Assembly: GCA_016201065.1 (NCBI GenBank)
Contig: JACQDL010000001.1
Span: 36,708 to 100,707, forward strand
DNA length: 64,000 nt
Direction of reading: 5' to 3'
Source of the DNA: Actinomycetota bacterium
GTDB taxonomy: Bacteria > Actinomycetota > Actinomycetes > Mycobacteriales > JACQDL01
Within the stretch, counting starts at the first letter, position 1, and the number at the start of each line of letters is the position of its first letter. Below, piece by piece: positions 23,936-38,837 of the stretch. The notes beneath the pieces were generated by a model. The model ran no database searches, was not told the DNA's origin, and saw nothing but the letters and a program-made list of their open reading frames with translations. The translations under genes and the position numbers were made by a program.

Positions 23936-24652
23936 TCATGCGGCACCTCGGCGGGTTCCTGCTTCGCGGGCAACCGCCGGGACGGGTCCCGGTCTCACGT
24001 CGCCTCCGCAGGCGTTGCTGTCCGCCAGCCCGGCGGCCAGTCTGCGACCCTCGACCAGGATGTTCCTGGCCGCGTTCACGTCGCGGTCGTGCTCGGTGCC
24101 GCACACGCGACAGGTCCACGCCCTGACGTCGAGGGGTTTCGGCCCGTCCCGGCGCCCGCATGCCGAGCACTGTCGGCGACGACGGGAACCAGCGGCCGAC
24201 CTTGGCGCGGTTCGCCGGGCCTCTCTCCTTGCGTGCCAGCTGGCGTTGGAGCCGGGCGAGCTTGCGGGACTTGCGGCGCAGGTGGCTCGGGTTCGCCACG
24301 ATCTCCCCGCCGGAGGTGGAAACCAACCGGTCCAGACCGAGGTCGATCCCAACGTCGTTCAGGCTGGCAGGTAGTGGTCGGTCAGCGACCTCAACAACGA
24401 ACGAGGGCGAGCCAGTTCCGGTAGGCGCGTCGGGCGTCCTGGCATGCCTGCACCAGCGCGACCGAGGCGACCTCGCCCAGCCACACCCGTTCTCCGGTGA
24501 GCTTGGCGAGGGTCACGACGCGGCGTTGCACCTGCGTGTCGGAGATCTTCCCCCCCGGCCGCGTGGGCGTCCTGGCGGGTACGGAGCGCGTCGTTGAACA
24601 CCACTCGAGCACACCCGAACGTGCGGGCCAGCATCTCCCGCTGGTCGGGTAC
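23936..24652 (-). pseudogene. tnpB: TnpB (IS200/IS605 RNA-guided nuclease) remnant with internal deletions and frameshifts
   Basis: Fragments QREMLARTFGCARVVFND; KISDTQVQRRVVTLAK...ALVQACQDARRAYRNW; SFVVEV...VGIDLGL (RuvC-I); NRAKV|GRWFPSS; CSACG...WTCRVCGTEHDRDVNAARNI (Zn ribbon, RuvC-III). RuvC-II region is missing. Confidence 0.92.
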
Positions 24653-24830
24653 CCGCCGACCGTGCGCCTCTCCCGGCTGGTGAACTCCCCCAACGGCGTC
24701 TCCGCCAGCAGTTCCGGTTGCGCACCCACCGCGAGCACCTATGGTTGCCGTCGTACTTCGCTGTGTCTTGCGGCGGCACCCCCTGTCGATCATCGGGGAG
24801 AACGTGGAGCAGCAGCGACGGCCCGCCTGA
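24650..24830 (+). pseudogene. tnpA: C-terminal fragment of TnpA (Y1 HUH transposase)
   Basis: YPPTVRLSRLVNSPNGVS, then frameshift to HLWLPSYFAVSCGGTPLSIIGENVEQQRRPA*. The usual catalytic Tyr position reads AAC (Asn) at 24801-24803; the HUH half is deleted. Confidence 0.85.
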
Positions 24831-24840
24831 ACAGCACCGG

Positions 24841-24948: not shown

Positions 24949-25022
24949 TTCACCCGCGACCCGAAGCCCTGCGGCGTCCGGGGCCCGGGGAGCCGCCGCC
25001 CACCCGGTGGGCTGGTCGGTCA

Positions 25023-25436
25023 CTACCGGTCCTGACCGGCGTCGCGACCAAGGCCAGGCCACGCCGCGACGTAGCTCGCATCCATCCCGGCCGGTGCCGA
25101 CCGAGATGGCTCACCGTCCGATGCGTCGCAGTGGGGGTGGGTGCACCACGCCACCCCCAGCAGTCCCGGTGGTATGCCCAACCCGTTGGCGATTCGTGCC
25201 AACACCGCCCGTGAGATCACCCGGCGACCGTTGACGATCGCGGACACCTCCGGTTGTTCGTGTCCGGTCAGCTCACCGATCGCACGCTGGCTGTATCCGT
25301 ACGCACCGAGCAGCCGATACACCGCCCCGACGTCCTGGGCGGTCAACGCCGACCGCATTACCGGCTCGCACCACACCCCGGGTGGTGGCTGGCCCGACGG
25401 CGCGAGTCGACGGGGTGCTCTGCCGGCGGGTGACAT
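25023..25436 (-). CDS. Stand-alone XRE-type HTH protein, paralogous to the N-terminus of the divergent regulator
   Basis: VWCEPVMRSALTAQDVGAVYRLL...SQRAIGELTG.EQPEVS.IVNGRRV...VLARIANGLGIP aligns by eye with residues ~14-90 of 25957-27321. Confidence 0.8.
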   Translation of the reverse strand: MSPAGRAPRRLAPSGQPPPGVWCEPVMRSALTAQDVGAVYRLLGAYGYSQRAIGELTGHEQPEVSAIVNGRRVISRAVLARIANGLGIPPGLLGVAWCTHPHCDASDGEPSRSAPAGMDASYVAAWPGLGRDAGQDR

Positions 25437-25444
25437 CCCTCGGA

Positions 25445-25672
25445 TCACGACACCACGCGCCCCTGGCCGTGCCCCGAGGCGGTGCGCAGCACCAACCGAA
25501 CTTCCCGCTGGGTCATCCGCAATCCACGGGCGATCCGCTCCGCTGGGCAGCCCTCCGCAGCCAGCCATGTGATCTGAGCGACGGCCTCCGGCGCGACGAC
25601 GATATTAGGAGATGTTCGAGATTTGGCCTGGCAGGGGTCGTGGGCCTGGGAACTTGCTGAACCGTGACGCAT
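25445..25672 (-). CDS. Small hypothetical protein (75 aa), possible HTH
   Basis: GGAGG SD before ATG 25672; AEGCPAERIARGLRMTQREVRLVL resembles a helix-turn-helix. Confidence 0.5.
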   Translation of the reverse strand: MRHGSASSQAHDPCQAKSRTSPNIVVAPEAVAQITWLAAEGCPAERIARGLRMTQREVRLVLRTASGHGQGRVVS

Positions 25673-25956: not shown

Positions 25957-27321
25957 ATGAACGTTGATCAGCACTCGACCGGCCAGGTCGCGCCGACGGT
26001 CTGGGAGCACCGTGAGATGCGGATGGCGTTGGCGTTCCGCGACCTGAAGGCCGTCTACGAACGCCTCCAGCGGGTGGGGGTGTCCCAGCGCCACATCGCT
26101 CGCCTGACCGGCCAGAGCCCGTCCGAGGTCTATGAGATCCTCAAGGGCCGCCGCGTCATGGCCCACGACGTGTTGGTGCGGGTCGCCGACGGATTGGGCA
26201 TCCCGCGCGGATACATGGGCCTCGCCTACGACGAATCAACGGAAATAGCCCTCGACCTGGCGACGGCGACGTGCTCTGGGAACGCCGACGAGCGGGACGA
26301 AGTCAGGCGGCTCCTCCGGCATGCCGCGAACGTCGCGATGGGTACTTCCGTTGAGGACGTCGCCCACTGGTGGCAACCCATCGACCGGCAGGTCGCGCCC
26401 GCGCCCACCGGCATCGGAATGCGCGACGTGGAGCACGTCGAGACGCTCACCGCCGCGATGCGTGCCCTGGACTACCGGTACGGCGGAGGAGCCTGCCGTG
26501 ACGCGGTAGCCGCCCACGTGCGGTGGACACAGCAACTCCTCACCGCATCCTGCGCCGACCGGACCCGTACCCGCCTGCATCGAGCGTTGGCAGACCTGCA
26601 CAATCTCGCGGGCTGGACCTCATTCGATGTCGGCATGTACTCCATTGCGCGAAAACATTTCGCACGCGCCCTCGAACAGGCCAAACACGCCGGAGATCTG
26701 TCGCTGGCCGCGAACGTGCTGTACCGCACGGGACGGCTCCACCTCCACCGTGGCATGCCCCGTGAGGCGCTGCGCTTCTTCCAGCTGGGGCAGATCACCG
26801 TCCAGGACAGTGGTTGCGGGCTGACGGTGGCGATGCTGTGCGCCAACGAAGGATGGGCCTACGCGTTGCTCGGCGACCGACCGCAGGTCCGGCGCTCGCT
26901 CGGGCGCGCCCGGGACGAGTTCACCCGCGCCGACCGCACCTCAGCTCCGGCCTGGGTGCGTTTCTTCGGCGATGCGGACCTGCACGCCTCCATTGGAGTG
27001 ACCTACTCCTCACAAACCAACGCGACCGCCAGTGAACTGACGCAGGCGATCGACCACATCAATCAGGCCATTGGGCTGCGGGGACCGGACATGACGCGCA
27101 GCCTGGTTTTCGAGCGGACCGCCCTCGCGGTGGCGCACCTGCGGGCCGGAAACCGGGACGTGGGGCTGGCGGTGGGACGCGAGGCGACCGCCTCCGGTGT
27201 TCGTTCGCTGCGCACCCTGGATCGGCTCGAACCGTTGCAGAGCATCGCCGCCACGCGCCACGGCGATACCGCCCTCGAGGATCTGGGGCACCAGATCGCG
27301 AGCTTGCGAGCGGCGTCGTGA
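25957..27321 (+). CDS. XRE-family transcriptional regulator with C-terminal TPR-like domain
   Basis: N-terminal HTH (VSQRHIARLTGQSPSEV), D..YGGG, LADLHNLAGW..FDVG, AWVRFF..ADL. Confidence 0.88.
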   Translation: MNVDQHSTGQVAPTVWEHREMRMALAFRDLKAVYERLQRVGVSQRHIARLTGQSPSEVYEILKGRRVMAHDVLVRVADGLGIPRGYMGLAYDESTEIALDLATATCSGNADERDEVRRLLRHAANVAMGTSVEDVAHWWQPIDRQVAPAPTGIGMRDVEHVETLTAAMRALDYRYGGGACRDAVAAHVRWTQQLLTASCADRTRTRLHRALADLHNLAGWTSFDVGMYSIARKHFARALEQAKHAGDLSLAANVLYRTGRLHLHRGMPREALRFFQLGQITVQDSGCGLTVAMLCANEGWAYALLGDRPQVRRSLGRARDEFTRADRTSAPAWVRFFGDADLHASIGVTYSSQTNATASELTQAIDHINQAIGLRGPDMTRSLVFERTALAVAHLRAGNRDVGLAVGREATASGVRSLRTLDRLEPLQSIAATRHGDTALEDLGHQIASLRAAS

Positions 27322-28238
27322 CCGGCGGCGCAGGCACCGCCGGTCACGCGACTTCCACCACGGTCCCCGACACGCTTCGGATCGCGCTCCACGACGTCTG
27401 CGCAACAGCGGGTCTCGACCCGACCGGAGCACAGTTGATCAAGTTCACCAACAACGCCGTGTTCGAACTGGCTGGAGCACCAGTGGTGATCCGTATCGCC
27501 GGGTCGCAGACGGCGCGCGACCGGGTCCCCACAGTGATCACAGTGGCACGCTGGCTCGCCGCGCACGACATGCCCAGCGTGCGGCTCGACCCTCGCGTGG
27601 ACCAACCGGTCCGGTCCGGAGGCCACCTGGCAACCCTGTGGCGACAGGTACCGAACATCGGCCCCGCCCCCACCGGCACCGACCTTGGGCGGATCCTTCG
27701 CCGCTACCACGCGCTGCCCCCGCCCGAGCAGCCGCTGCCCACCTGGCGTCCACTGCGGCCAATACGGCAGCGTCTCACCGAAACCGACATGCTCAGCGAC
27801 AGCGACCGCGAGTTCCTGGACGCGACGTGCGACGAGCTTGAAGACGCACTGAGCCGTCTGGATTGCCAACTCCCACCCGGACCGATCCACGGCGACCCTT
27901 TCCTCGGCAACCTGATACCCGGACCCGGCGGGCCGGTGATCTGCGATTTCGATTCTGCGGCCAACGGCCCACGGGAGTGGGATCTCACTCCCGTGGCCGT
28001 TGGTGGACTTCGGTTCCGCTACGTGGGCGAGGCGCCCACCCAACTCGCCCACGCCTACGGAACGGACCTGACCAGGTGGCCCGGCTTCACGGTGTTGCGA
28101 AAGCTTCGTGAATTGCAGCTCGTCACCAGTGTCGTGCCGGTCCTGCGACGCAACCCGGCGCTTACCGAACAGTGGCGCCATCGATTTACGACATTCCGCG
28201 ACCAGGATCACGCCGCGGTCTGGACCCCCTACCGGTAG
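27318..28238 (+). CDS. Aminoglycoside-phosphotransferase-like (APH/choline kinase fold) protein
   Basis: GTGA overlap; TNNAVF.L, IHGDPFLGN (Brenner motif), CDFD...GPREWDL. Confidence 0.88.
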   Translation: MTGGAGTAGHATSTTVPDTLRIALHDVCATAGLDPTGAQLIKFTNNAVFELAGAPVVIRIAGSQTARDRVPTVITVARWLAAHDMPSVRLDPRVDQPVRSGGHLATLWRQVPNIGPAPTGTDLGRILRRYHALPPPEQPLPTWRPLRPIRQRLTETDMLSDSDREFLDATCDELEDALSRLDCQLPPGPIHGDPFLGNLIPGPGGPVICDFDSAANGPREWDLTPVAVGGLRFRYVGEAPTQLAHAYGTDLTRWPGFTVLRKLRELQLVTSVVPVLRRNPALTEQWRHRFTTFRDQDHAAVWTPYR

Positions 28239-28320
28239 CCGGCGCTGACCCGCTGATCCAGACCATCGGCACCAACCCTCGGGCCGGCGCGGTCCGGGAA
28301 CCTCGAGATGGAGGACACCC

Positions 28321-28479
28321 ATGTCCAGCAGCACATTGCCGCAGCACCCGACCGTATGCACGGACGGGTTCGACCTGGACGTCACCGTGTTGGAGGTGGC
28401 TGATCCGGCCGGCCTGGTCAATGTGACCGACGACGGTTGCACCAGTACATGCGGAGCCTGTGTCACCAACATGGCCTGA
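28321..28479 (+). CDS. lanA: FxLD-family class I lanthipeptide precursor, 52 aa (not in the ORF track)
   Basis: GGAGG at 28310-28314; MSSSTLPQHPTVCTDGFDLDVTVLEVADPAGLVNVTDDGCTSTCGACVTNMA*; FDLD leader motif, Thr/Ser/Cys-rich core, directly upstream of lanB. Confidence 0.93.
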   Translation: MSSSTLPQHPTVCTDGFDLDVTVLEVADPAGLVNVTDDGCTSTCGACVTNMA

Positions 28480-28509
28480 TCGATCACCCGCCCACCGGTC
28501 GACGCGGTC

Positions 28510-31500
28510 GTGTCCGGTCTCCATCCGATACGTCTACCGGGCGTGAACCGGTCTGACCCGCCACGGGAGGTCGTCTTGCCGCCGTACGCTCGTCAGCCCG
28601 GGTACCGGGTCGCTGGTGCGGCACTCCTCCGCGCCACCGCCCACCCGATGCCGGAGGTCCCGCCGTGGCCGGACCTGGCCGACTCGACACCCGGGGCAGC
28701 CGCAGCCGGCGTGACCTGGCTTCGACAGGTCTGGGCGATCGACCACCTCGCCGACGCGATCGAGCACGCCAGCCCGGCGCTGGACCGGCAGGTACGGGCG
28801 CTGTGCGCCGCCGAGGTTCCCCCGGCTCGAAAGACCCGGCGTGCGGTGCTGTCGGTGGTGCGGTACCTGCACCGCATGACGGGGCGAGCCACGCCGTTCG
28901 GTTTGCTGGCGGGTGTCGCGTCGGCGAGTTTCGCGTCGCCCGCTCAGGTGCGGTGGGGTACCGACCACCGGCCTGTAGCCCGGGCCGCGGCGGAGTGGCT
29001 TGCCGGTGTGCTGGCGCGGTTGGAGGACTGCCCCGAACTTCTCGCCCGGCTGCCGGTGGTCGCCAACACCACACTGATGGTGCGTGGGGACCGGCTGGTC
29101 GTGCCGTATCAGCCGCAGGCCCGCGCCCGGGGGATCGGCGCGGTGGAGGTCTCGCTGCGGTACACCGCCGTCGTGCACGCCGTCATCGAAGCAGCCAGCA
29201 CACCGATCCAGATGGAGGATCTGGCCGCGACAATCCAGGCCGACCATCCGACGGCGCCCGGGGCGAAGATCACCGCGATGCTCACCGAACTGGTCCAGCG
29301 TGGTGCGCTGCTCACCAGCGTTCGCGCACCCAGCACCGAGCCGGACGCCTTGGGGCATCTTGTGGACCAGTTGGACGCGGTCGGCGCCCCCACCCTTGGC
29401 GCGGTCGGTGGGCTGGCCACGGCGGTGCGGGAGGTCCACTCAATGCTTGAGCGGCACAACCAGACGCCCGCCGCTGAGGGACGCCAGATCCGGGTAGCAG
29501 CCTCCACCCGGATGCGTGAGCTGGCGCCCACCACACGGCACCCCTTGGCGTTGGACCTTCGGCTCGACGGGACCTTCGTTCTTCCCGAGCAGGTCGCGCG
29601 GGAGGTCGAACACGCCGCGTGGGTGCTGACCCGGTTGAGCGCCTATCCGGTGGGGACGCCGACGTGGCGCGGCTACCACCAGCGGTTCTACGAACGGTTC
29701 GGTATCGGTTCGCTGGTTCCGCTGCGTGAGGTGATCGGCGACAGCGGCATCGGCTGGCCTGACGGCTACCCGGGTACGGTCGTACCAGAGCCCCGTTCGC
29801 CGATGTCGAGCCGGGACGAGACCCTGCTGGGGTTGGCCCAACGCGCCGCCCTCGACGGCCTCGACGAGGTTGTCGTGGATGAGCACCTGATCTCGGCGCT
29901 GCGGCTGGGGCCGACGCAGCACCGCCCACCGGCGCATCTGGAGATCGGTGTCCGGATACGTGCCACAAGCCACGCGGCCATGGCGTGCGGTGACTTCCTG
30001 ATCGAGGTGCTCAACGTCTCGCGTGCGGCTGGCGTGCTGACCGGACGGTTCCTCAGCGTCCTGGACCCCGAGGGCCGGACCGGCCTGGCGCGTACCCTCA
30101 CGGATCTGCCCGGTACCGACGGTGACACGGTGGCGGCACAGCTGTCGTTCCCGCCACTGGACCCCGCGACCGCGCACGTCACGCGGGCGATGCCGATCCT
30201 GCCCACCGTGGTCAGTCTTGCCGAGTACCGCACCGCTGACGAGCGGGTCTTGACCATCGACGATCTCGCGGTGGGCTGCGACGGCCACCGGATGTACCTG
30301 GCGGCGCCGGCCCGTGGACTGCGGGTGGAGGCCGCGGGTGCGCATGCGCTGAACCTCAAGACCCACACCCCGCCCCTCGCCCGGTTCCTGATCGAACTCA
30401 GCCGGGCGCAGTGCGCGCAGGTCACAGTGTTCTCCTGGGGCGCTGCCGGGTGCCTGCCGTTCCTGCCACGGTTGCGCTACGGCCGTACCGTCCTGTCCCC
30501 GGCGCGGTGGCGGCTGGAGGCATCCGACCTCCCGGCCCGCGGGGCGCCGTTGGTCGCCTGGGAGCGTGCCCTGACCGTGTGGCGGGCGCAGCGGCGGGTA
30601 CCGGGCCTGGTGTATCTGGCCGAAGGGGACCGGCTGCTGCCACTGGACCTGGACCGCTGCGGGCACCGTGTCCTGTTGCGCACCCACCTCGCCTCGACGC
30701 CGCACGCGGTGCTGATCGAAGCCCCCGGCGTTCACGACACCAACGACTGGTGCGGCGGGCGCGCCCACGAACTCATCGTTCCGGTCGTCGCCACCGAACC
30801 GGCATCGTGGCCGCCGCTGCCGACACCGACCGGCGCACGCGTCGTCGGCCGCGAGCACACCCACACGCCTGCCGTCTGCGGGGTCATGCTGGCCAGCCTG
30901 TACGGGGATGTCCACCGCCAGGACACCATCTTGTCCGGATACCTTCCCGCGCTGCTGGCCGAGTTCGACGAACCCGCCTGGTGGTACATCCGCTACCGCG
31001 ATCCCGACCACCACCTGCGGCTACGGTTCGCGTTGACCGACCCGGCGAGGTTCGGTGAGATGGCCCGCGCGGTCAGCACCTGGGCGGAGGAACTCAACCG
31101 GATCGGATTGGTGCGCGACCTGCGGTACCCGACATCCCATCCGGAGATCGGGCGCTGGGGATCGGGCCCGGCCTGGGCTGCCGCGGAGGAGGTGTTTCGC
31201 GCCGACTCCCGGGCCCTGCTGGTTCAGCTGGGCCAACTGTGCCACCCACACCGGCTGGCACTCACGGCCGCCCACACAGTCGCCATCACGATCGCGTTCA
31301 CCGGCAGCGCGACCGCCGGCATGCGGTGGCTGTTGGACCATGTGCCGGCCACCGCCCCGACGCCGGTGCCGCGGCCGGTCTTCGCCGAGGCTGTTCGCCT
31401 GGCTGATCCCCGCGGCGGTTGGGCGTGTCTGCGCGCCGCACCTGGTGGGGCGGCGATCCACGACGTGTGGCCGCCGCGCGAGACGGCTCTGGCCGCCTAC

Positions 31501-31683
31501 CGCCGCCACCTCGACGGCCCACACACCCAGGGCATCGCCGTCGATGACGTTCTCCGGTCCCTCCTGCACGCCAACTTCGTGCGCGCCAGCGGCATCGACT
31601 TCGACGGCGAAGCCACCGGGTTGTACCTGGCCCGTGCCGCGGCCCTCGCCTGGACGGCCCGCACGACAGGCCGTCAGCCATGA
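28510..31683 (+). CDS. lanB: Lanthipeptide dehydratase (glutamylation and elimination domains), 1057 aa
   Basis: YLHRMTGRATPFGLLAG, LPFLPRLRYG..VL.PARW, C-terminal WWYIRYRDPDHHLRLRF, YP...E..RWG. Confidence 0.94.
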   Translation: MSGLHPIRLPGVNRSDPPREVVLPPYARQPGYRVAGAALLRATAHPMPEVPPWPDLADSTPGAAAAGVTWLRQVWAIDHLADAIEHASPALDRQVRALCAAEVPPARKTRRAVLSVVRYLHRMTGRATPFGLLAGVASASFASPAQVRWGTDHRPVARAAAEWLAGVLARLEDCPELLARLPVVANTTLMVRGDRLVVPYQPQARARGIGAVEVSLRYTAVVHAVIEAASTPIQMEDLAATIQADHPTAPGAKITAMLTELVQRGALLTSVRAPSTEPDALGHLVDQLDAVGAPTLGAVGGLATAVREVHSMLERHNQTPAAEGRQIRVAASTRMRELAPTTRHPLALDLRLDGTFVLPEQVAREVEHAAWVLTRLSAYPVGTPTWRGYHQRFYERFGIGSLVPLREVIGDSGIGWPDGYPGTVVPEPRSPMSSRDETLLGLAQRAALDGLDEVVVDEHLISALRLGPTQHRPPAHLEIGVRIRATSHAAMACGDFLIEVLNVSRAAGVLTGRFLSVLDPEGRTGLARTLTDLPGTDGDTVAAQLSFPPLDPATAHVTRAMPILPTVVSLAEYRTADERVLTIDDLAVGCDGHRMYLAAPARGLRVEAAGAHALNLKTHTPPLARFLIELSRAQCAQVTVFSWGAAGCLPFLPRLRYGRTVLSPARWRLEASDLPARGAPLVAWERALTVWRAQRRVPGLVYLAEGDRLLPLDLDRCGHRVLLRTHLASTPHAVLIEAPGVHDTNDWCGGRAHELIVPVVATEPASWPPLPTPTGARVVGREHTHTPAVCGVMLASLYGDVHRQDTILSGYLPALLAEFDEPAWWYIRYRDPDHHLRLRFALTDPARFGEMARAVSTWAEELNRIGLVRDLRYPTSHPEIGRWGSGPAWAAAEEVFRADSRALLVQLGQLCHPHRLALTAAHTVAITIAFTGSATAGMRWLLDHVPATAPTPVPRPVFAEAVRLADPRGGWACLRAAPGGAAIHDVWPPRETALAAYRRHLDGPHTQGIAVDDVLRSLLHANFVRASGIDFDGEATGLYLARAAALAWTARTTGRQP

Positions 31684-32954
31684 CCAGCGAACACCTCGCC
31701 AGCGCCATGGCCGGCGCCGTCGCCGATCGACTGGCGCGCCCCGATACCGTGCCCACGCACCTGACCGAGGCGATCTGGTGGCGGCAATCCCTGGCGCATG
31801 GCGCGCCCGGAATCGCGCTGCTACACGTCGAGCGCGCCGCCGCCGGACTCGGACCATGGGAGCGGGCACACGACTGGCTCGCCTACACGGCGCGCGCCGC
31901 GCTCACCACCGGACCCGACAGTCACCTGTTCTACGGCGCCCCAGCCCTCGCCCACGTCCTCGCCTGCGCCGCCGCGCACCGGCCCGGCGCCTACACCCGG
32001 GCGCTGGCCCGCCTTGACCACGCCATTGCCGTCGACACCCACAACCGAGTCGGTGACGCCCACGCCCGCATGGACCGGGGCGAGCTGCCCGCCCTCGCCG
32101 ACTTCGACGTGATTCGAGGTCTCAGCGGTGTCGGCTCCCTGCTGCTGCGCCGCGACCCCCACGGCCTGGCGCTGCACGCCGTCCTCGACTACCTCGTCCG
32201 GCTCACCGAGCCCGTGAGGGGCGACGGGCAGGCCCTGCCCGGCTGGTGGACCACGTCGAGTCCCTCCGGGCGCGACAGCGGCCAGTTCCCCGGAGGCCAC
32301 GGCAACACTGGTGTGGCACACGGCATCGGTGGTGTGCTCGCCCTGCAGGCGCTCGCAACTCGACACGGCATCACCGTGGACGGCCAGCGGGAGGCCATGG
32401 GACGGATCTGCGCCTGGCTGGACCGGTGGCGCACCGACACCGGCGCGGGCCCAGTCTGGCCGTACTGGGTCAACCTCGCTCACCTGCGCGCCGGACACCA
32501 CGACACCACCGACCGGCAGCCACCGAGCTGGTGCTACGGCACCGCCGGCCTGGCCCGGGCCCAACAACTGGCCGCCATGGCCACCGGTGACACCCACCGC
32601 CAAGACTTCGCCGAACGCGCACTGGTCCAGGCCCTATCGGGTGTCGTTCAACGCTCCACCACGACGAATGCCTCCCTATGTCATGGCTACGCCGGGTTCG
32701 CCCACATCGCCAGTATCGTGGCGGCCGACGCCAGCACCGATGCCGCTGCGGCACTGCGGGCACTGACCCAAGACCTGCTGAACGCGCTCCAACCCGCCGA
32801 CGTCGATCCCGCCGAGACCGCCGCCCGCCTCGTTCGCGGCGACGACGGACCGGGATTCCTGGAAGGCGCCGCCGGGATCGCGCTGGCGGTCCTGGCTCCC
32901 AGCGCCGCGACCCGGCCCCAAACCGGCTGGGACACCTGCCTGCTCATCACCTGA
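31680..32954 (+). CDS. lanC: Lanthionine synthetase C (cyclase)
   Basis: FDVIRGLSG, GVAHGIGG, SWCYGTAG and LCHGYAG (Zn ligands Cys/Cys/His intact), FLEGAAG. Confidence 0.94.
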   Translation: MTSEHLASAMAGAVADRLARPDTVPTHLTEAIWWRQSLAHGAPGIALLHVERAAAGLGPWERAHDWLAYTARAALTTGPDSHLFYGAPALAHVLACAAAHRPGAYTRALARLDHAIAVDTHNRVGDAHARMDRGELPALADFDVIRGLSGVGSLLLRRDPHGLALHAVLDYLVRLTEPVRGDGQALPGWWTTSSPSGRDSGQFPGGHGNTGVAHGIGGVLALQALATRHGITVDGQREAMGRICAWLDRWRTDTGAGPVWPYWVNLAHLRAGHHDTTDRQPPSWCYGTAGLARAQQLAAMATGDTHRQDFAERALVQALSGVVQRSTTTNASLCHGYAGFAHIASIVAADASTDAAAALRALTQDLLNALQPADVDPAETAARLVRGDDGPGFLEGAAGIALAVLAPSAATRPQTGWDTCLLIT

Positions 32955-32985
32955 GCAACACCCCACCCCACCGTCTGCGAAGGAG

Positions 32986-35088
32986 ATGCCGCACCCGATG
33001 CCACCGACCCCCTGGCGCCAGTACAACGTCGAGTTTCCCGATCGGGCGACCGCGGCGTGGACCGCCGCGCACGACCTCCACCCGGCGTTGACCGCGGCAC
33101 AGGAGACCGGTGCGCTTCACGGGTGGTGGTTCGTGCGTAAACAACCCTGGAAGCTCCGATACCTACCCGACGACCCCGACTCCCGTGTGATCACCGAACT
33201 GTTGGACACGCTCACCACGCAGGGCCGGGTCGCCGGGTGGGCGGTGGGGACCTACGAACCCGAAACGCGGGCCTTCGGCGGTGACGCCGCGATGGACGTC
33301 GCCCACGCGCTGTTCCACCGCGACAGCCACCACATCCTGGCCCGCGCCGCGCAGGCCAACGGCGCGCTCCCGTGGCGGCGGGAGACCACGGTCCTGTTGT
33401 GCAGTGCCATGCTGCGCGCCGCGGGGTTGGACTGGTACGAGCAGGGCGACGTCTGGTCGAAAGTCGCCGCGTTGCGCCCCGACACACCCACGACCACCAC
33501 CACCGGACGAGCCACGGCACTGGTGGGGTCCATGCGGCAGCTCATGGCCACCGACACCCGCACCTTGTGCGCACCCGGTCGTGGTCCCCTCGCCGGCTGC
33601 GGCAGCTGGCTGGACGCCTTCGAGAGCACCGGGTACCAGCTGGCGGAGCTGGCACGGCACGGCGAGCTGACCCGGGGACTACGCGCCGTCCTCGCCCACC
33701 ACGTCATCTTCCACGCCAACCGCGCCGCGCTACCCGCAGCTGACCAGGCCACCCTGGCCGGGTTGGCGGTCGACGCCGTCTTCACCTCCACCGACGACCC
33801 CGTGTCGCCACTCACCGCGACACCACCACCCACTAAGGTGCCCGAAATGACCACTGTCCGTGACGACATCCCCGCCGCGTCCGCCGACCAACTGCGCCAC
33901 GATCTCACCACCCGGCTACATGGAATGAACGCCATTCGGACCCCCGCCATCGAAGCGGCCTTCCGGCGGACACCGCGACACCTGTTCCTTCCGGGTCTAC
34001 CGGTGGAGCAGGCATACGCCGACACCCCCATCTACACCAAGCAGGATGCCTGTGGCGCGTCGATCAGCGCGGCCTCCCAACCATGGATGGTCGCGGGCAT
34101 GCTCGAACAGCTCGACGCCCAACCCGGCGAGCGGATCATGGAAGTCGGTGCGGGCACGGGATACAACGCGGCGCTGCTCGCCGCGGTCGTCGGCGCGCCC
34201 GGTCACGTCACCACGATCGACGTCGACGACGACCTCGTCACCGCTGCCCGACAGCACTTGAGCGCCGCCGGCGTCGGCAACGTCGACGTCGTCCTCGGCG
34301 ATGGCGCGCTGGGGCATCCCGAAGGCGCCCCCTATGACCGGATCATCGCCACGGTGGGCGCCTACGAGACACCCACCGCGTGGCTGGAGCAGCTCGCACC
34401 CGGCGGGCGTCTGGTCGTTCCGGTCCGGCTGCGCGGCACCACCTCCCGCTCCATCGCCTTCGAGCGCGACACCCACGCCTGGGTCAGCCGGGGCTCCAAG
34501 CTGGCGGTCTTCATGCCGCTGCGCGGGATCGCCGACGACGCCCGGCGGATCGTCGCGCTCACCCCCGAGCAGGATGTGACACTGCAGGTCAACAAGGACC
34601 ATCTGGTTGACGACCCGGCCCTGGTGGGAGTGTTGGACACCACCCGGCATGAGGAATGGTCCGGTGTGCACCATCCACCCAACGTTCCGTTCGAGTGGAT
34701 GGAACTGTGGTTGTGCCTGCGCCTGGACAATCCCCTCATGCGCATGAACACCCAACCCTCGGCGGCCGACCGTGGCCAGGTCACCCCCATGTTCCCGTGG
34801 GGTTCCATGGCCACCACCCGAGACCATGACCTTGCCTACCTCACCATCCGACCAGCACCACCGGCCAGTGACGGCGGGAAGCTGTACGAGGTCGGCGTCA
34901 TCGGCCACGGACCCGACGGCAGCAGCCTCGCGCAGCGCGTCGCCGAGGAGATCCGGACCTGGGACGGCCAATTCCGTGGCCGTGGCGCCCGATTCGAAAT
35001 CCCCGACACGCCCACCACCAACGACCCGGCAGCCGGTCGATTCGTCCTGGACCGACCCCACCACCCCATCACCGTCATCTGGGAATGA
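32986..35088 (+). CDS. Fusion of a Lant_dehydr_C-like glutamyl-lyase domain and a PIMT-like O-methyltransferase (FxLD system)
   Basis: N-terminal WWFVRKQPWKLRY, YEPE...FGG..AMDVAHALFH.DS, HHVIFHANR. C-terminal AFRRTPRHLFLP, SAASQP, MEVGAGTGYNAA (SAM), YDRIIATVG, PGGRLVVP. Confidence 0.92.
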   Translation: MPHPMPPTPWRQYNVEFPDRATAAWTAAHDLHPALTAAQETGALHGWWFVRKQPWKLRYLPDDPDSRVITELLDTLTTQGRVAGWAVGTYEPETRAFGGDAAMDVAHALFHRDSHHILARAAQANGALPWRRETTVLLCSAMLRAAGLDWYEQGDVWSKVAALRPDTPTTTTTGRATALVGSMRQLMATDTRTLCAPGRGPLAGCGSWLDAFESTGYQLAELARHGELTRGLRAVLAHHVIFHANRAALPAADQATLAGLAVDAVFTSTDDPVSPLTATPPPTKVPEMTTVRDDIPAASADQLRHDLTTRLHGMNAIRTPAIEAAFRRTPRHLFLPGLPVEQAYADTPIYTKQDACGASISAASQPWMVAGMLEQLDAQPGERIMEVGAGTGYNAALLAAVVGAPGHVTTIDVDDDLVTAARQHLSAAGVGNVDVVLGDGALGHPEGAPYDRIIATVGAYETPTAWLEQLAPGGRLVVPVRLRGTTSRSIAFERDTHAWVSRGSKLAVFMPLRGIADDARRIVALTPEQDVTLQVNKDHLVDDPALVGVLDTTRHEEWSGVHHPPNVPFEWMELWLCLRLDNPLMRMNTQPSAADRGQVTPMFPWGSMATTRDHDLAYLTIRPAPPASDGGKLYEVGVIGHGPDGSSLAQRVAEEIRTWDGQFRGRGARFEIPDTPTTNDPAAGRFVLDRPHHPITVIWE

Positions 35089-35089
35089 C

Positions 35090-36217
35090 ATGCACCGCAC
35101 CGGGCCGATCGCCCGCCGCTTCCCCCTCGTGGCCCGCGCCCGCCCACCGTGCCCGCCGCTGGCAGACCGGGTCGACCGACTGCGCGCACTCGCCGACACA
35201 GCCGACCAGAACGACGACCTCGCCACCGCCTCCGCCGTCTTCAACCAGGCGGCGCTGCTCGCCTCGGACTGCGGTCTACCCGACCTGGCCAGGCAGTGGT
35301 GCCACCGGCACACCGGTGTCCACCTGCGGGCGCTGCCTGTGGACGCGCGGGCGGCCCGCCACGCCCTGGAACCCATCGTCAACCTCGCCCGCCTGCACAT
35401 CCGGGCAGGCCACGGCGACACCGCATTCCACCTCTTGGACTCCCTCTTCGAGGCGGTCGATGCCCGCACTGATGTCGTCATCGACGGTGTGTCGCTGCCC
35501 ATCACCCAGCTGACCCGGACAGCCACCGACCACCGAGAACTCCGCCAGTGGCTGTGGACCGTTCACCTCGCCGACGGCAGCCGCGCCCTCACCAGCATCG
35601 GCCGCTGGCAGGACGCCCACGAGCACCTGCACCGCCGACACGGCATCGGCACACGGATGCTCGACGGCCGCCAGGTTGCGGTCATCACCCACCTCACCGC
35701 GGACAACCACGCGCACGCCAAAGCACTGATCGACGGCACCGCAGCCGGCGAGCCCTGGGAGTCCGCCGTGACCAGATGCCTGGCCGCACTGTGCCACGCA
35801 GACGGTGACCACGCGACCCTCAACGACATCACCGCCATGCTGGAGGGCTACCGACCACTCCCCCCCACCCCCAGCCTGGCCGTGTTCCACGGCCGGTTGT
35901 GCCTGTCCGTCATCGACGCGGCCGGTGGCATCAGGCATCCCGGTGCACGCGACCTCGCCAACACGCTGATCCAGCAGACGCGGGCCTCCCGCGACGGGTA
36001 CCTCACACGCGACGTACTCGCCCACGACGGCTGCGTCACAATGCTCACCAACGACCAACGGCGCGACCTCGGTGAGATGCTCAAGGCCACCGCGCTGGGA
36101 CTCCGGGACATCCCCACGCAGCTGTACGCACGCCTCACGGCGGCATTGGACACCAGCGAAGCCGTGCTGGCGCGCACGTTGGCCGCGCGACCGCAGCGCA
36201 CCCGGTCTGTCAGGTAG
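35090..36217 (+). CDS. Conserved hypothetical protein coupled to the FxLD cluster (helical/TPR-like)
   Basis: ATG 1 nt after the methyltransferase stop; RFPLVARARPPC.PL..RV, AVFNQAALLASDCG.PDLA, LEP.VNLARL; 375 aa intact. Confidence 0.75.
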   Translation: MHRTGPIARRFPLVARARPPCPPLADRVDRLRALADTADQNDDLATASAVFNQAALLASDCGLPDLARQWCHRHTGVHLRALPVDARAARHALEPIVNLARLHIRAGHGDTAFHLLDSLFEAVDARTDVVIDGVSLPITQLTRTATDHRELRQWLWTVHLADGSRALTSIGRWQDAHEHLHRRHGIGTRMLDGRQVAVITHLTADNHAHAKALIDGTAAGEPWESAVTRCLAALCHADGDHATLNDITAMLEGYRPLPPTPSLAVFHGRLCLSVIDAAGGIRHPGARDLANTLIQQTRASRDGYLTRDVLAHDGCVTMLTNDQRRDLGEMLKATALGLRDIPTQLYARLTAALDTSEAVLARTLAARPQRTRSVR

Positions 36218-36273
36218 CGGCCGGCTGACGGTGGAGGGTCGTTCGCGTAGGTGGGCTCGGCCGCTGGGCTCAG

Positions 36274-36502
36274 CGGCAGCTGCCAGCGACCAGGAGCGGC
36301 CGTTGACGACGACATCCGCCCCACCAGCAGACCATCATCATCCGTCGGTTGCACGACGGCGACGAACAGGGACGGCAGCGCCGTGGCCTCCGGAACCCAC
36401 CGCAGGGCGAAGTGCCGGTAGGTCACCCGTGCCCAGGACAGGACCATGCTGTGGGGTCCCTCCCACTCCAGCCCCGCGCACGCCACCACGGGCCCGTCGA
36501 AA
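36274..36502 (-). pseudogene. NUDIX-type hydrolase internal fragment, cut at the cargo boundary
   Basis: FDGPVVACAGLEW...TYRHFALR...LLVGRMSSSTAAPGRWQLP stops just before where the Nudix box (GG..E) would be expected; no start. Confidence 0.65.
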
Positions 36503-36541
36503 CCCTGAACGGCCGGGCTTGCGCCAGCAAAGAAGGGGTCA
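36503..36541 (-). mobile_element. IS605 left end, outer half, plus target tetramer TGAC (36541-36538)
   Basis: Minus strand TGAC|CCCTTCTTTGCTGGCG-CAAG-CCCGGCCGTTCAGGG. CAAG predicts TGAC under the IS608 guide/target pairing rule. Confidence 0.85.
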
Positions 36542-36842
36542 CCGACGAGTCGTCTACGCCATCGAGGCCCTCGCCGAAGCAGGGCCCAACCTGGGCCGGC
36601 CGCTCGTAGACCGGGTCAAGGGCTCCACAGTGCACAGCTTCAAGGAACATCGACCTGGCTCGGCAGGCACCAGCGAGATCAGGGCCCTGTTCGTGTTCGA
36701 CCCCTGGCGTTCGGCGATCGTGCTGGTCGCCGGAGACAAGGCCGGCAACTGGAACGGCTGGTACCGCCAAGCCATCCCGCGCGCCGAGGAGCTGTAGGCG
36801 ATCTACCTGGAGGAACGAGCCCACGAGGAGAGTGCACCGTAG
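36538..36842 (+). pseudogene. 3' part of RelE/ParE-superfamily (HigB/Gp49-like) toxin, with a premature TAG at 36795
   Basis: HRRVVYAIEALAEAGPNLGRPLVDRVKGS...E.RPGSAGTSEIRALFVFDPWRSAIVLVAGDKAGNWNGWYRQAIPRAEEL*AIYLEERAHEESAP*. Confidence 0.88.
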
Positions 36843-37113
36843 GCGACACCCGCTGGTCGCAGATCCGCAACAAGCACATCGCCGCGGCCTGACTCAACGC
36901 GACATCGCGGCCGTCATGGGCGTCACCGTCGGCCGGGTCTCCCAGATCGAATCGGGCGACGTCTCCGGCATTGACGTCCTCGACCGCTACGTCACCGCCA
37001 TCGGCGGCCTGCTGGAGATCGTCGCCAACTTTGGCGACGAACAATTCAAGGGAGGACGTCGAGGGTGTCCAGGCCCCGTTGGGTGGCGGATCTGGTTCCT
37101 CACTGTGGGTTGA
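36839..37113 (+). pseudogene. HigA-like HTH antitoxin remnant (internal deletion, no clear start)
   Basis: DTRWSQIRNKHIAAA, then a frame change to RGLTQRDIAAVMGVTVGRVSQIESG...LDRYVTAIGGLLEIVANFGDE. Confidence 0.8.
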
Positions 37114-37119
37114 CCGACG
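37105..37119 (+). repeat. 15-bp direct repeat, right copy (GTGGGTTGACCGACG)
   Basis: Identical to 23830-23844. Confidence 0.85.
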
Positions 37120-37135
37120 GACGCGCACCCTCTAC

Positions 37136-37161
37136 CTTTGTTGAACGTTCGCTAAACAAAG
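37136..37161. promoter_or_regulatory. Imperfect palindrome, probable TetR autoregulatory operator
   Basis: CTTTGTT-GAACGTTCGCTA-AACAAAG, AT-rich, ends 7 bp before the TetR start. Confidence 0.6.
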
Positions 37162-37168
37162 GGGTACC

Positions 37169-37798
37169 GTGGGGCGCCGACCGACCTGGACCGAACCGGA
37201 TCTGCTCCGAGCGGTGATGGCGGTGTTTCGCCGCAGGGGCTTCGCCCGGACATCCATCCGCGACCTGGCGGAGGCGACGGGCCTGCATCCGGGCAGCCTG
37301 TACCAGGCGTACGGCAGCAAGGAAGGCTTGTTCGCGGCGGCGGTCACCACCTACAACGAGCTGGTGGTCGAGCACCGGGTGCGCACCCATCTCGACGAGG
37401 CCGAGCCGCCGCTGCGCGGAATCGACACGTTCTTCGCCTCGACCTTCGACGACGACGGCGACGACGACTCCGCTGCCGACGGACCCAACCCGGGGTGCCT
37501 GCTGACGAACACCGCTGTCGAGGCGCACCTGCTACCCGGCACCAGTCGCGACGGGGTCGCCGCGGGCCTGAACCTGATCGAGCAAGGGTTCCAGCGAGTG
37601 CTGGAGCGCGCCCGCCAGGCCGGGCAGATCAACCCCACCGCCGCGACCGACCAACTCGCCGCCCAGCTGCTTGCCCTCTACCAGGGCGTGCTGGTGTTGG
37701 TGCGGTTCGGCGCGCCCACGACGAAGCTCGCCGCCATCGTCGCCCACGCCGTTCCCGCGATCATCGCATCCGGCCACCACGCGGAAGGATCGACCTGA
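37169..37798 (+). CDS. TetR/AcrR-family regulator
   Basis: F.RRGFARTSIRDLAEATGLHPGSLYQAYGSKEGLF; GCLLTNTAVE. Confidence 0.92.
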   Translation: MGRRPTWTEPDLLRAVMAVFRRRGFARTSIRDLAEATGLHPGSLYQAYGSKEGLFAAAVTTYNELVVEHRVRTHLDEAEPPLRGIDTFFASTFDDDGDDDSAADGPNPGCLLTNTAVEAHLLPGTSRDGVAAGLNLIEQGFQRVLERARQAGQINPTAATDQLAAQLLALYQGVLVLVRFGAPTTKLAAIVAHAVPAIIASGHHAEGST

Positions 37799-37800
37799 CC

Positions 37801-38172
37801 ATGTACACCGAGATCTGGAGTGCCTACGCCAGCGCATGGTCGGCTCCCGAGCCACAGCGCCATGACCTGCTCGACCGGCACGTCTGCCCGGACGTCGCCT
37901 ACCGGGACCCGGCGACGGAGGTACGTGGCCGCGACGCGCTGTCGACCTACATGCACTCCTTCCAGCAGGGCTTTCCGGGGCACGAGTTCGCCATCGTGTC
38001 CGTCGAGTCCCACCACGGCCGGTCGCTGGCCCGCTGGGAGCTCCGGGACCACGCCGGTAGGCCGGTTCAGGCCGGCATCAGCCACGCCGTCCACGACGAG
38101 CAGCAGCGGCTCGCCGACGTCACCGGATTCTTCGCGGTCCCACCGCAGGCTGCCCCACCGGCGGACCGTTGA
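37801..38172 (+). CDS. SnoaL-like / NTF2 fold protein
   Basis: Y..AWS...[16 protein letters not shown]...FQQGFPG.EF; coupled to TetR. Confidence 0.8.
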
Positions 38173-38827: not shown

Positions 38828-38837
38828 CCCGGCGCCC

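What the first reader, a model, noticed from the sequence alone, without database searches (positions are those of the whole stretch)
28321..36217. Export-less class I lanthipeptide cluster in mobile context: candidate intracellular anti-phage system
Seen: lanA-lanB-lanC-methyltransferase-hypothetical, all intact and tightly coupled, amid otherwise decayed genes. No transporter, protease or immunity gene lies in the cargo or nearby. Neighbours are TA, IS and NUDIX remnants. Known (recalled, please verify): FxLD/PIMT-type clusters of Actinobacteria, including S. coelicolor coi, have been reported as anti-phage 'lanthivirin' systems enriched in defence islands. Inference: this is a new member under purifying selection, acting inside the cell on phage infection.
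Basis: partly seen in the sequence, partly recalled or inferred. Interest (0 to 1): 0.85.

Follow-up and report, generated by a model that had tools for sequence, protein, structure and literature searches.

The report
Lanthivirin-type anti-phage lanthipeptide gene cluster
This is an intact five-gene cluster for a modified peptide of the recently published "lanthivirin" (lanthiphage) family, which protects actinomycetes against phages from inside the cell; it is an ordinary new member, found here on a horizontally acquired island in an uncultured groundwater actinomycete, not in a Streptomyces.

Summary
Window 28321-36217 encodes lanA (52-aa FxLD precursor), lanB, lanC, a glutamyl-lyase/PIMT-methyltransferase fusion (LanSA = LphDE) and a 375-aa CoiH/LanH/LvnF homologue. 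All are full length and separated by -4 to 31 nt. No ABC-transporter ATPase lies in the 64-kb window.

Shomar et al. (bioRxiv 2024; Cell Host Microbe 2026) describe more than 2000 such clusters as intracellular anti-phage systems. Chen et al. 2026 show that CoiH oxidises the first methyllanthionine ring to a sulfoxide.

The core here, GLVNVTDDGCTSTCGACVTNMA, is almost identical to catalogued "variant 6 / clade 10" cores. The gene architecture equals that of clade 10.

It is therefore a new member of a known kind, and its anti-phage function is inferred by homology only.

- The host is a 3.65-Mb groundwater MAG of a Mycobacteriales-like order, not Streptomyces.
- The locus is not a defence island. 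It is a 13.3-kb insertion in the conserved murE-mraZ ... thiE-thiG-pknB core region.
- The insertion is flanked by an exact 15-bp repeat and carries a decayed IS605 tnpB and higBA remnants.
- The NUDIX remnant was not confirmed.
- The upstream NsdA-family regulator and APH-like kinase are intact.

Interest is low to moderate.

The parts
28321..28479 (+). lanA: 52-aa FxLD-type precursor. Leader motif FDLDVTVLE; core GLVNVTDDGCTSTCGACVTNMA with 3 Cys and 5 Ser/Thr.
   Evidence: TIGR04363 40.2 bits, cut-off 30. Shine-Dalgarno GGAGGA at 28310-28315. Near-identical cores are listed in Shomar Suppl. Table 2. Aligned by eye with the tested Sma/Sr2/Scl/Sc3 precursors.
28510..31683 (+). lanB: full-length class I dehydratase with a glutamylation domain and its own glutamyl-lyase domain.
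   Evidence: PF04738 E=3.6e-209, PF14028 E=6e-31. 63-65% identity to LanB of L092 and L093.
31680..32954 (+). lanC: lanthionine cyclase. Its start overlaps the lanB stop (ATGA).
   Evidence: PF05147 E=1.5e-43. Aligns to MadC 8byk (E=7.7e-24) and NisC. The WCYG and CHG motifs, the Zn-ligand motifs by recall from NisC, align with those of MadC.
32986..35088 (+). lanSA (= LphDE / CoiSA-like): N-terminal second glutamyl-lyase domain fused to a C-terminal PIMT-type O-methyltransferase.
   Evidence: PF14028 at residues 10-261 and PF01135 at 306-511. TIGR04364 446 bits, cut-off 320. PIMT structures match at E down to 8.6e-30.
35090..36217 (+). lanH (= CoiH / LvnF / LphF homologue): 375 aa, putative methyllanthionine sulfoxide-forming enzyme.
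   Evidence: No Pfam, NCBIfam or PDB match. 681 homologues at E<=0.001; the two whose contigs were read and 14 of 18 same-order loci have the homologue next to lan genes. Keeps 99 of 105 positions that are at least 90% conserved, including D60, N98 and R101. The function comes from Chen et al. 2026.
25957..27321 (+). NsdA-family XRE-HTH/TPR regulator, intact and same strand as the lan genes. Candidate pathway regulator (inferred).
   Evidence: NF053720 269 bits, cut-off 75. HTH_31 plus TPR. 68-74% identical to regulators in Nocardia and a Logan contig.
27318..28238 (+). APH-family phosphotransferase. Its start overlaps the regulator's stop, and it ends 82 nt before lanA.
   Evidence: PF01636 E=1.3e-18. 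The regulator-kinase pair recurs elsewhere without lan genes.
25023..25568 (-). Small XRE-type HTH gene, divergent from the regulator and a paralogue of its N-terminus.
   Evidence: HTH_31 and HTH_3. tblastn with the L112 and L113 regulators hits 25146-25394 at 44-51% identity.
23996..24793 (-). Decayed IS200/IS605-family tnpB, with frameshifts and an internal deletion of about 225 bp.
   Evidence: HTH_OrfB_IS605 E=1.4e-11. Comparison with a sibling remnant on contig C6.
23830..23844 (.). Left copy of the exact 15-bp direct repeat GTGGGTTGACCGACG. It contains the stop codon of the mptB-like gene.
   Evidence: Two exact copies in the window; 0.02 expected by chance.
37105..37119 (.). Right copy of the 15-bp direct repeat; right edge of the 13.3-kb island.
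36540..36797 (+). 3' part of a HigB/Gp49-like toxin gene, lacking its N-terminus. A possible 5' piece lies at 23835-23888.
   Evidence: PF05973 E about 1e-14, profile positions 11-87 of 90. Joining the two pieces raised the score only from 54.9 to 55.6 bits, so the split-gene reading is plausible but not proven.
36832..37113 (+). HigA-like HTH antitoxin remnant; appears frameshifted with an internal deletion.
   Evidence: Weak TIGR03070 hit, E=8e-5. Reading of the sequence.

Best explanation
The stretch is a coi-like class I lanthipeptide biosynthetic operon of the lanthivirin (lanthiphage) family.

Biosynthesis, inferred from characterised homologues:
1. The 52-aa LanA is bound through its FDLD leader.
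2. LanB glutamylates Ser/Thr of the core using Glu-tRNA.
3. Glutamate is eliminated by two different lyase domains, one in LanB giving Z-Dhb and one in LanSA giving E-Dhb. This sets up mixed ring stereochemistry.
4. LanC closes three thioether rings: an A ring Thr36-Cys40 over TDDGC, and two overlapping C-terminal rings onto Cys44 and Cys47.
5. The PIMT domain of LanSA methylates the second Asp of the A ring (Asp38), leading to aspartimide or isoaspartate.
6. LanH oxidises the A-ring methyllanthionine to a sulfoxide.

Function, inferred: no exporter, protease or immunity gene accompanies the operon. As shown for five other family members, the product most likely stays in the cell and blocks phage gene expression, especially late genes, after DNA entry. 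It does this without harming the host.

Context: the operon reached this uncultured groundwater actinomycete by horizontal transfer as part of a 13.3-kb island. The island inserted at the stop codon of an mptB-like gene in the conserved core region. Its mobility genes have since decayed.
For: Domains and trusted-cut-off family hits:
- TIGR04363 and TIGR04364 are above cut-off; PF04738, PF14028, PF05147 and PF01135 are present.
- Genes are tightly coupled, with Shine-Dalgarno sites.

Core peptide:
- Its first 18 residues are identical to catalogued lanthiphage cores (variant 6, clade 10).
- Clade-10 rows have the same architecture: full LanB plus the Thiopep_Methyl fusion.
- The layout matches the experimentally active Sma and Sr2 precursors.

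Synteny: lanA-B-C-SA-H order is the same in the four close fused-lanSA loci (L093, L114-L116), and L092 differs only in a split lanSA. The L093 core is identical through ...CGACVT.

LanH keeps 99 of 105 conserved positions.

Enzyme functions, anti-phage activity and intracellular action come from the literature.

No ABC ATPase lies in the window.

Horizontal origin:
- Island GC is 0.68-0.72 against 0.73-0.77 in the flanks, and GC3 is 0.82-0.85 against 0.89-0.94.
- lanH is absent from both same-family genomes and present in only 20 of 401 genomes of the order.
- The syntenic site in G002 lacks the island.
- A 15-bp direct repeat flanks it.

Assembly: the island is contiguous and at flank depth in four metagenome runs.
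Against: - No functional data exist for this cluster. The organism is uncultured, and no RNA runs exist.
- No clade-10 member was among the five clusters tested in the preprint.
- No known defence system is adjacent.
- The direct alignment to CoiH, and so the equivalence of D60/N98/R101 to CoiH D59/N97/R100, could not be made. No CoiH sequence was obtainable.
- LanC was not placed on the published tree.
- Leader removal and the final structure are unknown for the whole family.
- dS is probably underestimated at GC3 about 0.85, so dN/dS values are rough.
Confidence: 0.82

Rival explanations
1. The peptide is an exported lanthipeptide, either an antibiotic or a SapT-like morphogen. Transporter, protease and immunity genes would be encoded elsewhere in the genome.
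For: Most characterised class I lanthipeptides are extracellular. The genome lists 60 ABC-ATPase hits at E<=1e-5. Shomar et al. say secretion cannot be fully ruled out. 18% of family members have ABC genes nearby.
Against: No transporter lies within 60 kb. The LphDE/LphF accessory genes and the TDDGC core are hallmarks of the non-secreted defensive clade. Spent media and extracts of expressing strains had no activity, and expression did not affect growth or adsorption.
Confidence: 0.07
2. The operon is an unexpressed passenger. It would be intact only because it arrived recently on a now-dead mobile element, with no present role in this host.
For: The surrounding mobility and TA genes are decayed. 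S. coelicolor keeps its cluster strongly repressed. No sigma-70-like promoter was found. No transcript data exist.
Against: All five ORFs plus the regulator and kinase are intact while tnpB, higB and higA decayed in the same island. This argues for selection on the cargo. The island is fixed at flank depth in four samples. The promoter scan is not suited to actinomycetes.
Confidence: 0.1
3. Assembly artefact: the island does not belong to this genome and was joined through the repeated IS remnant.
For: Unitigs break inside the IS remnant (23934-24548), which has a second copy on contig C6.
Against: Single contigs run 24519-39000 through the cargo, the right repeat and thiE in three of the four runs. 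The left contig runs through the left repeat into the IS end. Depth is equal across the region. mptB-thiE synteny in G002 ties the two flanks together.
Confidence: 0.01

Closest known systems
coi cluster of Streptomyces coelicolor A3(2) (lanthiphage_Sco; CoiA1-3, CoiB, CoiC, CoiSA, CoiH)
   Same: Same gene set and order: a full LanB with its own lyase domain, LanC, a lyase-PIMT fusion and a LanH. The leader has FDLD(I/V)xVLE and the A ring is Thr-Asp-Asp-Gly-Cys. Neither cluster has a transporter or protease. The coi cluster has demonstrated anti-phage activity.
   Different: One precursor gene here against three in coi. The neighbouring regulator is an NsdA-family/APH pair rather than the Cvn8 conservon. 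The host is a small-genome uncultured actinomycete. Protein identity to the Coi proteins could not be measured.
lanthiphage_Sma and lanthiphage_Sr2 (Shomar et al.; clade 9, core variant 6), active in S. albus
   Same: Same core-variant class: L(I/V)N(L/V)TDDGC-x3-C-...-C-x4-5-A with a C-terminal ...N(V/M)A-type tail.
   Different: The third Cys spacing is C-x2-C here (CGAC) against C-x3-C in Sma and Sr2. The architecture type differs: clade 9 is Type 5, whereas here it is clade-10-like with the LphDE fusion.
Catalogued clade-10 lanthiphage clusters, e.g. GCF_008923205.2 (core GLVNVTDDGCTSTCGACVSGAV), and the Sphaerimonospora cavernae cluster (L093)
   Same: The core is identical over the first 18-19 residues. 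The five-gene order is the same. Enzymes are 59-66% identical.
   Different: The last 3-4 core residues differ (TNMA). The leader N-terminus is different and shorter, and contains a Cys13. The genomic neighbourhood is different.
olv cluster of Streptomyces olivaceus (OlvA/B/C/SA; Acedo et al. 2019)
   Same: Both are FxLD-type class I lanthipeptide clusters. In both, a PIMT-like methyltransferase converts a ring Asp to isoAsp via aspartimide.
   Different: OlvSA has no lyase domain, and the olv clade lacks a LanH and the syn-elimination chemistry. The cluster here has both.

Membership tests
Lanthivirin / lanthiphage BGC family (Shomar et al.) | Class I core enzymes LphB (LanB-like) and LphC (LanC-like) | tested here: met
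   PF04738 plus PF14028 in lanB; PF05147 in lanC, with WCYG and CHG motifs aligned to MadC.
Lanthivirin / lanthiphage BGC family (Shomar et al.) | Accessory LphD (PF14028) and LphE (PF01135), separate or fused as LphDE | tested here: met
   A 700-aa fusion with PF14028 at 10-261 and PF01135 at 306-511. TIGR04364 446 bits against a cut-off of 320.
Lanthivirin / lanthiphage BGC family (Shomar et al.) | LphF / LvnF / LanH (CoiH homologue) following the methyltransferase (present in about half of the clades) | tested here: met
   The 375-aa ORF has 681 homologues. In the two encoding contigs read and in 14 of 18 same-order loci the homologue lies in or beside a lan cluster. It keeps 99 of 105 conserved positions. 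Direct alignment to CoiH itself was not possible.
Lanthivirin / lanthiphage BGC family (Shomar et al.) | Core peptide motif TxDxC followed by further Cys rings (TXDXCXXXC...), preceded by an FxLD-type leader | tested here: met
   The precursor reads FDLDVTVLE...VTDDGCTSTCGAC. TIGR04363 is above cut-off. Near-identical cores are listed as variant 6 / clade 10.
Lanthivirin / lanthiphage BGC family (Shomar et al.) | LanC falls inside the 'defensive clade' of the class I cyclase phylogeny | not tested
   No reference cyclase sequences or tree were available. As a proxy only, the architecture equals clade-10 rows of Suppl. Table 1 and LanC is 57-60% identical to cyclases of the closest fused-lanSA (coi-like) loci.
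Lanthivirin / lanthiphage BGC family (Shomar et al.) | Host in Actinobacteria | tested here: met
   ThiE is 64-73% identical to Actinomycetospora, Pseudonocardia, Kutzneria, Mycolicibacterium and Streptomyces. The flanks show dcw, thi and pknB synteny as in Mycobacteriales.
Lanthivirin / lanthiphage BGC family (Shomar et al.) | Statistical association with defence systems or mobile elements (26.6% near known systems; not obligatory) | tested here: inconclusive
   No known defence system in the island by PADLOC on the cluster and ten neighbouring or nearby ORFs. A mobile-element context is present: 15-bp repeat, IS605 remnant and higBA remnants.
Lanthivirin / lanthiphage BGC family (Shomar et al.) | Confers protection against phages when expressed | not testable with these tools
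   Needs expression and plaque assays. No RNA data exist for this organism.
FxLD lanthipeptide system (NCBIfam TIGR04363 / TIGR04364) | Precursor and methyltransferase both score above the curated cut-offs | tested here: met
   40.2 bits against 30, and 446.2 bits against 320.
olv-type clusters (OlvSA without lyase domain, no LanH) | Stand-alone methyltransferase and no second lyase domain | tested here: not met
   The methyltransferase is fused to a PF14028 domain and a LanH gene follows. The cluster is therefore coi-like, not olv-like.

The most novel reading that the evidence does not exclude
The lanthivirin operon has been captured directly downstream of a widespread, self-contained NsdA-family regulator / APH-like kinase module, together with a small HTH paralogue. 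It travels with that module as a transposase-less 11.6-kb cargo that split one end hairpin of an IS605-family element. The regulator-kinase pair would then be a new, portable on-switch for lanthivirin production, in place of the conservon control known from S. coelicolor. It could possibly respond to infection. This would show how such clusters spread into small-genome, non-filamentous actinomycetes.
Probability: 0.12. Interest if true: 0.5.

Novelty: new member of a known kind. Interest (0 to 1): 0.25.

Why it matters
The find adds little in principle. The family, its intracellular anti-phage role and the enzymology of all five gene products have been described in 2019-2026 papers.

Its modest value is as a data point:
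- A lanthivirin cluster sits in an uncultured groundwater actinomycete with a 3.65-Mb genome.
- The cluster was clearly acquired horizontally into a housekeeping region.
- The cargo has stayed intact while the mobility and toxin-antitoxin genes around it decayed. This is circumstantial support that the cargo is useful to the host.
- The core differs from catalogued ones only in its last residues, and an unusual regulator/kinase pair sits directly upstream. Both could be included in comparative or heterologous-expression studies of phage specificity and regulation.

Tried and rejected
- The search for related loci with LanH in genome contigs found nothing.
- CoiH/CoiC sequences could not be obtained. 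Residue equivalence to CoiH is therefore by numbering only.
- I tested whether LanH is a paralogue of the neighbouring XRE-TPR regulator. BLASTP gave no significant match, best E=1.1, so this was rejected.
- NUDIX remnant: no Pfam hit at E<=5 and no tblastn hit with three NUDIX proteins from related modules. Not confirmed.
- Known defence genes next to the cluster: PADLOC gave only generic methyltransferase (mad2) similarity and a marginal NsnC hit at E=6e-4. Rejected.
- I tested whether the NsdA/APH pair is a regular lanthivirin component. It occurs without lan genes in three loci. It lies near only 1 of 20 other lanH loci examined (18 fetched from the order plus L092 and L093), with one further weak regulator-only hit. 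Rejected as a family feature and kept as a local peculiarity.
- An intact copy of the IS to define its ends: the C6 copy is also a remnant, and the C51 tnpB is too distant with unrelated ends.
- Joining the two putative higB pieces raised the Pfam score only from 54.9 to 55.6 bits. Paralogues in the genome lack informative N-termini. The split-toxin reading stays unproven.
- No contig with an empty site appeared in four metagenome runs, and no RNA runs exist.
- G002 does not give a clean empty site. Two crtY-like genes occupy the spot.


Full report
**Observation**

The plus strand of 28321-36217 carries five co-oriented genes.

- lanA (28321-28479) encodes MSSSTLPQHPTVCTDGFDLDVTVLEVADPAGLVNVTDDGCTSTCGACVTNMA. 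A GGAGGA Shine-Dalgarno site precedes it. It scores 40.2 bits on TIGR04363, 'FxLD family lanthipeptide', against a cut-off of 30.
- lanB (28510-31683) has Lant_dehydr_N (E=3.6e-209) and Lant_dehydr_C.
- lanC (31680-32954) overlaps the lanB stop and has LANC_like (E=1.5e-43).
- The 700-aa product of 32986-35088 has Lant_dehydr_C at residues 10-261 and PCMT at 306-511. It scores 446 bits on TIGR04364, 'methyltransferase, FxLD system', against a cut-off of 320.
- The fifth gene starts at ATG 35090, one base after the previous stop, and ends at 36217 (375 aa). It matches nothing in Pfam, NCBIfam, PADLOC or PDB.

LanC aligns with MadC and NisC, and its WCYG and CHG motifs line up with theirs. All five products align over 97-100% of their length with homologues.

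**What the family is**

- Shomar et al. (bioRxiv 10.1101/2024.06.26.600839; cited as Cell Host Microbe 2026) describe more than 2000 actinobacterial class I lanthipeptide clusters. They first named them lanthiphages and later lanthivirins.
- The family is defined by a LanC clade enriched near defence systems. It carries the accessory genes LphD/LphE/LphDE (PF14028, PF01135) and LphF, and has a conserved core motif (TXDXCXXXC...).
- Native expression in S. coelicolor and heterologous expression of four further clusters protected against phages.
- Extracts and spent media were inactive, and adsorption and host growth were unaffected.
- Only 18% of clusters have ABC transporters nearby. Escaper phages carry mutations in a phage GNAT, and phage late transcription is reduced.
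- Chen, Zhu and van der Donk (10.64898/2026.08.26.747419) summarise the enzymology of the S. coelicolor coi cluster. The two lyase domains of CoiB and CoiSA give Z- and E-dehydrobutyrine. The methyltransferase acts on the second Asp of the A ring. CoiH (LanH/LvnF) and three homologues oxidise the A-ring methyllanthionine to a sulfoxide.

**Membership tests**

1. The architecture is that of coi: full LanB, LanC, the lyase-methyltransferase fusion and LanH.
2. In the preprint's Supplementary Table 2, cores such as GLVNVTDDGCTSTCGACVSGAV...CISNAY and ...CVSNAD (variant 'Type 6', Clade 10) share the first 18 residues with the core here. The exact core was not found in the stored, truncated part of the table.
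3. Clade-10 rows of Supplementary Table 1 show LanC=1, full LanB=1 and Thiopep_Methyl fusion=1, which is the architecture seen here.
4. Translating the published synthetic operons gives the active Sma and Sr2 precursors (...FELDITVLE...LINLTDDGCGSTCSSPCASSVA and ...FDLDVDVLE...LITLTDDGCKPSCPASCATNVA). They have the same layout as the precursor here. The only difference is C-x2-C instead of C-x3-C before the last Cys, a spacing that many clade-10 cores also have.
5. LanH has 681 homologues. The nearest are 57-62% identical, from Sphaerimonospora, Streptosporangium, Micromonospora and Pseudonocardiaceae.
6. In the two encoding contigs read and in 18 loci fetched from the same order, the homologue nearly always follows lanSA in a lan cluster.
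7. LanH keeps 99 of 105 positions that are at least 90% conserved among 45 homologues. These include D60, N98 and R101. By numbering they probably correspond to the essential D59, N97 and R100 of CoiH, but this could not be checked by alignment.

Placement of LanC on the published tree was not possible.

**Export, protease, immunity, defence neighbours**

- The nearest of the 60 ABC-ATPase hits listed for the genome is on contig C21 at 3699-4109. That is outside the window and more than 60 kb from the cluster.
- The island contains no peptidase gene.
- PADLOC finds no known defence protein in the cluster or among the neighbouring ORFs tested. It returned only generic methyltransferase similarity.
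- The wider window is housekeeping. To the left are two Mur ligases, a penicillin-binding-protein transpeptidase, mraZ, MoxR/DUF58, a HEPN-methyltransferase-DinB unit, an M19 dipeptidase, a polyprenyl synthase and two mptB-like mannosyltransferases.
- To the right are a TetR, thiE, an Rv2175c-like gene, thiG, thiO, a PASTA kinase, DAHP synthases, PFK and others.

This is therefore not a defence island.

**Host**

- The window is C21:36708-100707 of a 3.65-Mb assembly in 65 contigs, estimated 97.8% complete.
- The cluster's sequence is held by four runs of one groundwater metagenome study, and no RNA run was found.
- ThiE is at most 73% identical to any species representative. The best matches are Actinomycetospora, Pseudonocardia, Kutzneria and Mycolicibacterium.
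- The host is an uncultured actinomycete of a Mycobacteriales-like order, not a Streptomyces.
- The genome has only this one FxLD methyltransferase, plus one further LanC-like domain in a 1194-aa frame elsewhere.

**Horizontal origin and mobile context**

- GC falls from 0.73-0.77 in the flanks to 0.68-0.72 across 24-38 kb. GC3 of the lan genes is 0.82-0.85 against 0.89-0.94 for flanking genes.
- lanH is absent from the two genomes of the same family. It is present in 20 of 401 genomes of the order, at 34-53% identity.
- In the same-family genome G002 the two mptB-like genes are followed after about 0.7 kb by thiE and the Rv2175c-like gene. Two small crtY-like genes occupy that gap. Here the same two anchors are 14.3 kb apart.
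- An exact 15-bp repeat, GTGGGTTGACCGACG, lies at 23830 and 37105. The left copy includes the mptB-like stop codon. Chance expectation is 0.02 copies.

Inside the repeats, from left to right:

- A possible 5' piece of a higB-like gene (23835-23888).
- A strong 9-bp-stem hairpin (23899-23920, z = -3.45).
- A decayed IS605-family tnpB on the minus strand (HTH_OrfB_IS605; frameshifted, with a deletion of about 225 bp relative to a sibling remnant on contig C6).
- A small HTH gene.
- An intact NsdA-family XRE-TPR regulator (NF053720, 269 bits) whose stop overlaps the start of an intact APH-family kinase.
- The lan operon, 82 nt further on.
- About 320 bp without a recognisable gene.
- The 3' two-thirds of a Gp49/HigB-like toxin gene (36540-36797).
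- A decayed HigA-like HTH gene.

At 36505-36517 only the 3' arm of a second hairpin like the first is present. A complementary CCCGGCC lies at 24845-24851. This fits the idea that the 11.6-kb cargo split an IS end.

The nested model raised in other first-stage notes is thus plausible. However, neither an intact IS copy nor the Pfam score of the joined toxin (55.6 against 54.9 bits) proves it.

The assembly is sound. Single contigs run from 24519 through the cargo into thiE in three of the four runs. Depth is the same as in the flanks, and no empty-site contig exists.

**The upstream regulator-kinase pair**

The same two-gene unit, with the same 4-nt overlap, occurs in Micromonospora polyrhachis, a Nocardia and a Logan contig at 62-76% identity. 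None of these has lan genes nearby, and a NUDIX gene sometimes lies downstream. Among 20 other lanH loci, one (L115) has a divergent 39-40% identical pair 3.3 kb upstream, and one has a weak regulator hit.

The pair is therefore not a family component but an independent module next to which the operon sits here. It may or may not control the operon. No terminator-like site separates it from lanA, but the simple scans are uninformative in this GC range.

**Selection**

Against the Sphaerimonospora cluster (L093) and a Logan contig (L092), the enzymes are 59-66% identical with dN/dS of 0.28-0.50. lanA is 0.45-0.54. The stretch from the end of the leader through the core up to ...CGACVT is identical to that of L093.

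dS is probably underestimated at this codon bias. The values show long-term constraint in the family, not recent constraint in this lineage. The contrast between an intact cargo and the decayed tnpB, higB and higA around it is the better local argument.

**Verdict**

The finding is a new member of a well-described family. An earlier follow-up in this scan reached the same conclusion for a similar cluster in another genome.

The anti-phage, intracellular mode of action is inferred from five tested relatives and cannot be tested here.
- the non-Streptomyces, uncultured host;
- the housekeeping rather than defence-island neighbourhood;
- the intact regulator and kinase upstream;
- the unconfirmed NUDIX remnant.

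Noticed in passing
window 23830-23844 and 37105-37119: An exact 15-bp direct repeat, GTGGGTTGACCGACG, bounds the 13.3-kb low-GC island. The left copy contains the stop codon of the mptB-like gene. The syntenic site in a same-family genome lacks the island.
   Followed up: partly
window 23899-23920, 24845-24858 and 36500-36517: An intact 9-bp-stem hairpin (CCCGGCCG-TGAA-CGGCCGGG) lies next to the tnpB remnant. At the far end of the cargo only the 3' arm survives, and a complementary CCCGGCC sits 11.6 kb away. AAACC occurs at both junctions. This is compatible with cargo inserted into an IS605-type end hairpin.
   Followed up: partly
window 25957-28238; loci L111, L112, L113, L115: An NsdA-family XRE-TPR regulator and an APH-family kinase with overlapping stop and start form a conserved two-gene module in Micromonospora, Nocardia and metagenome contigs. 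The module is usually unrelated to lanthipeptide genes. Its function is unknown.
   Followed up: partly
window 25146-25394 (-): A small divergent HTH protein is a paralogue (44-51% identity) of the N-terminal HTH of the NsdA-family regulator it faces.
   Followed up: partly
own genome G000:C6:167776-170400: A sibling IS605 tnpB remnant (80-96% identical in DNA) lies directly beside an ATP-grasp ORF and a PIMT-like methyltransferase hit. This looks like a graspetide-type RiPP locus, so a second peptide cluster may be associated with the same IS.
   Followed up: no
window 13263-16463 (-): A SAV_6107-like HEPN protein (E=7.9e-35), a SAM-methyltransferase-like ORF and a DinB/IMS polymerase lie in one orientation. 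This confirms the gene content of another first-stage note. The SOS-box claim was not checked.
   Followed up: partly
own genome G000:C7:23193-24137: A second LanC-like domain lies in a 1194-aa open frame. It is probably a class II-IV lanthipeptide synthetase and is unrelated to this cluster.
   Followed up: no
locus L092 (Logan contig SRR27067773_26104): In the closest relative of the cluster, LphD and LphE are separate genes. It is followed by an SCP1201-like deaminase toxin with Imm1, a subtilisin-like S8 peptidase and ISL3 / HTH_Tnp_1 transposase genes. This is another mobile, conflict-gene context.
   Followed up: no
window 28357-28359 (Cys13 of LanA): The leader contains a Cys not seen in the L092 or L093 leaders or in the four tested precursors. 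Its significance is unknown.
   Followed up: no
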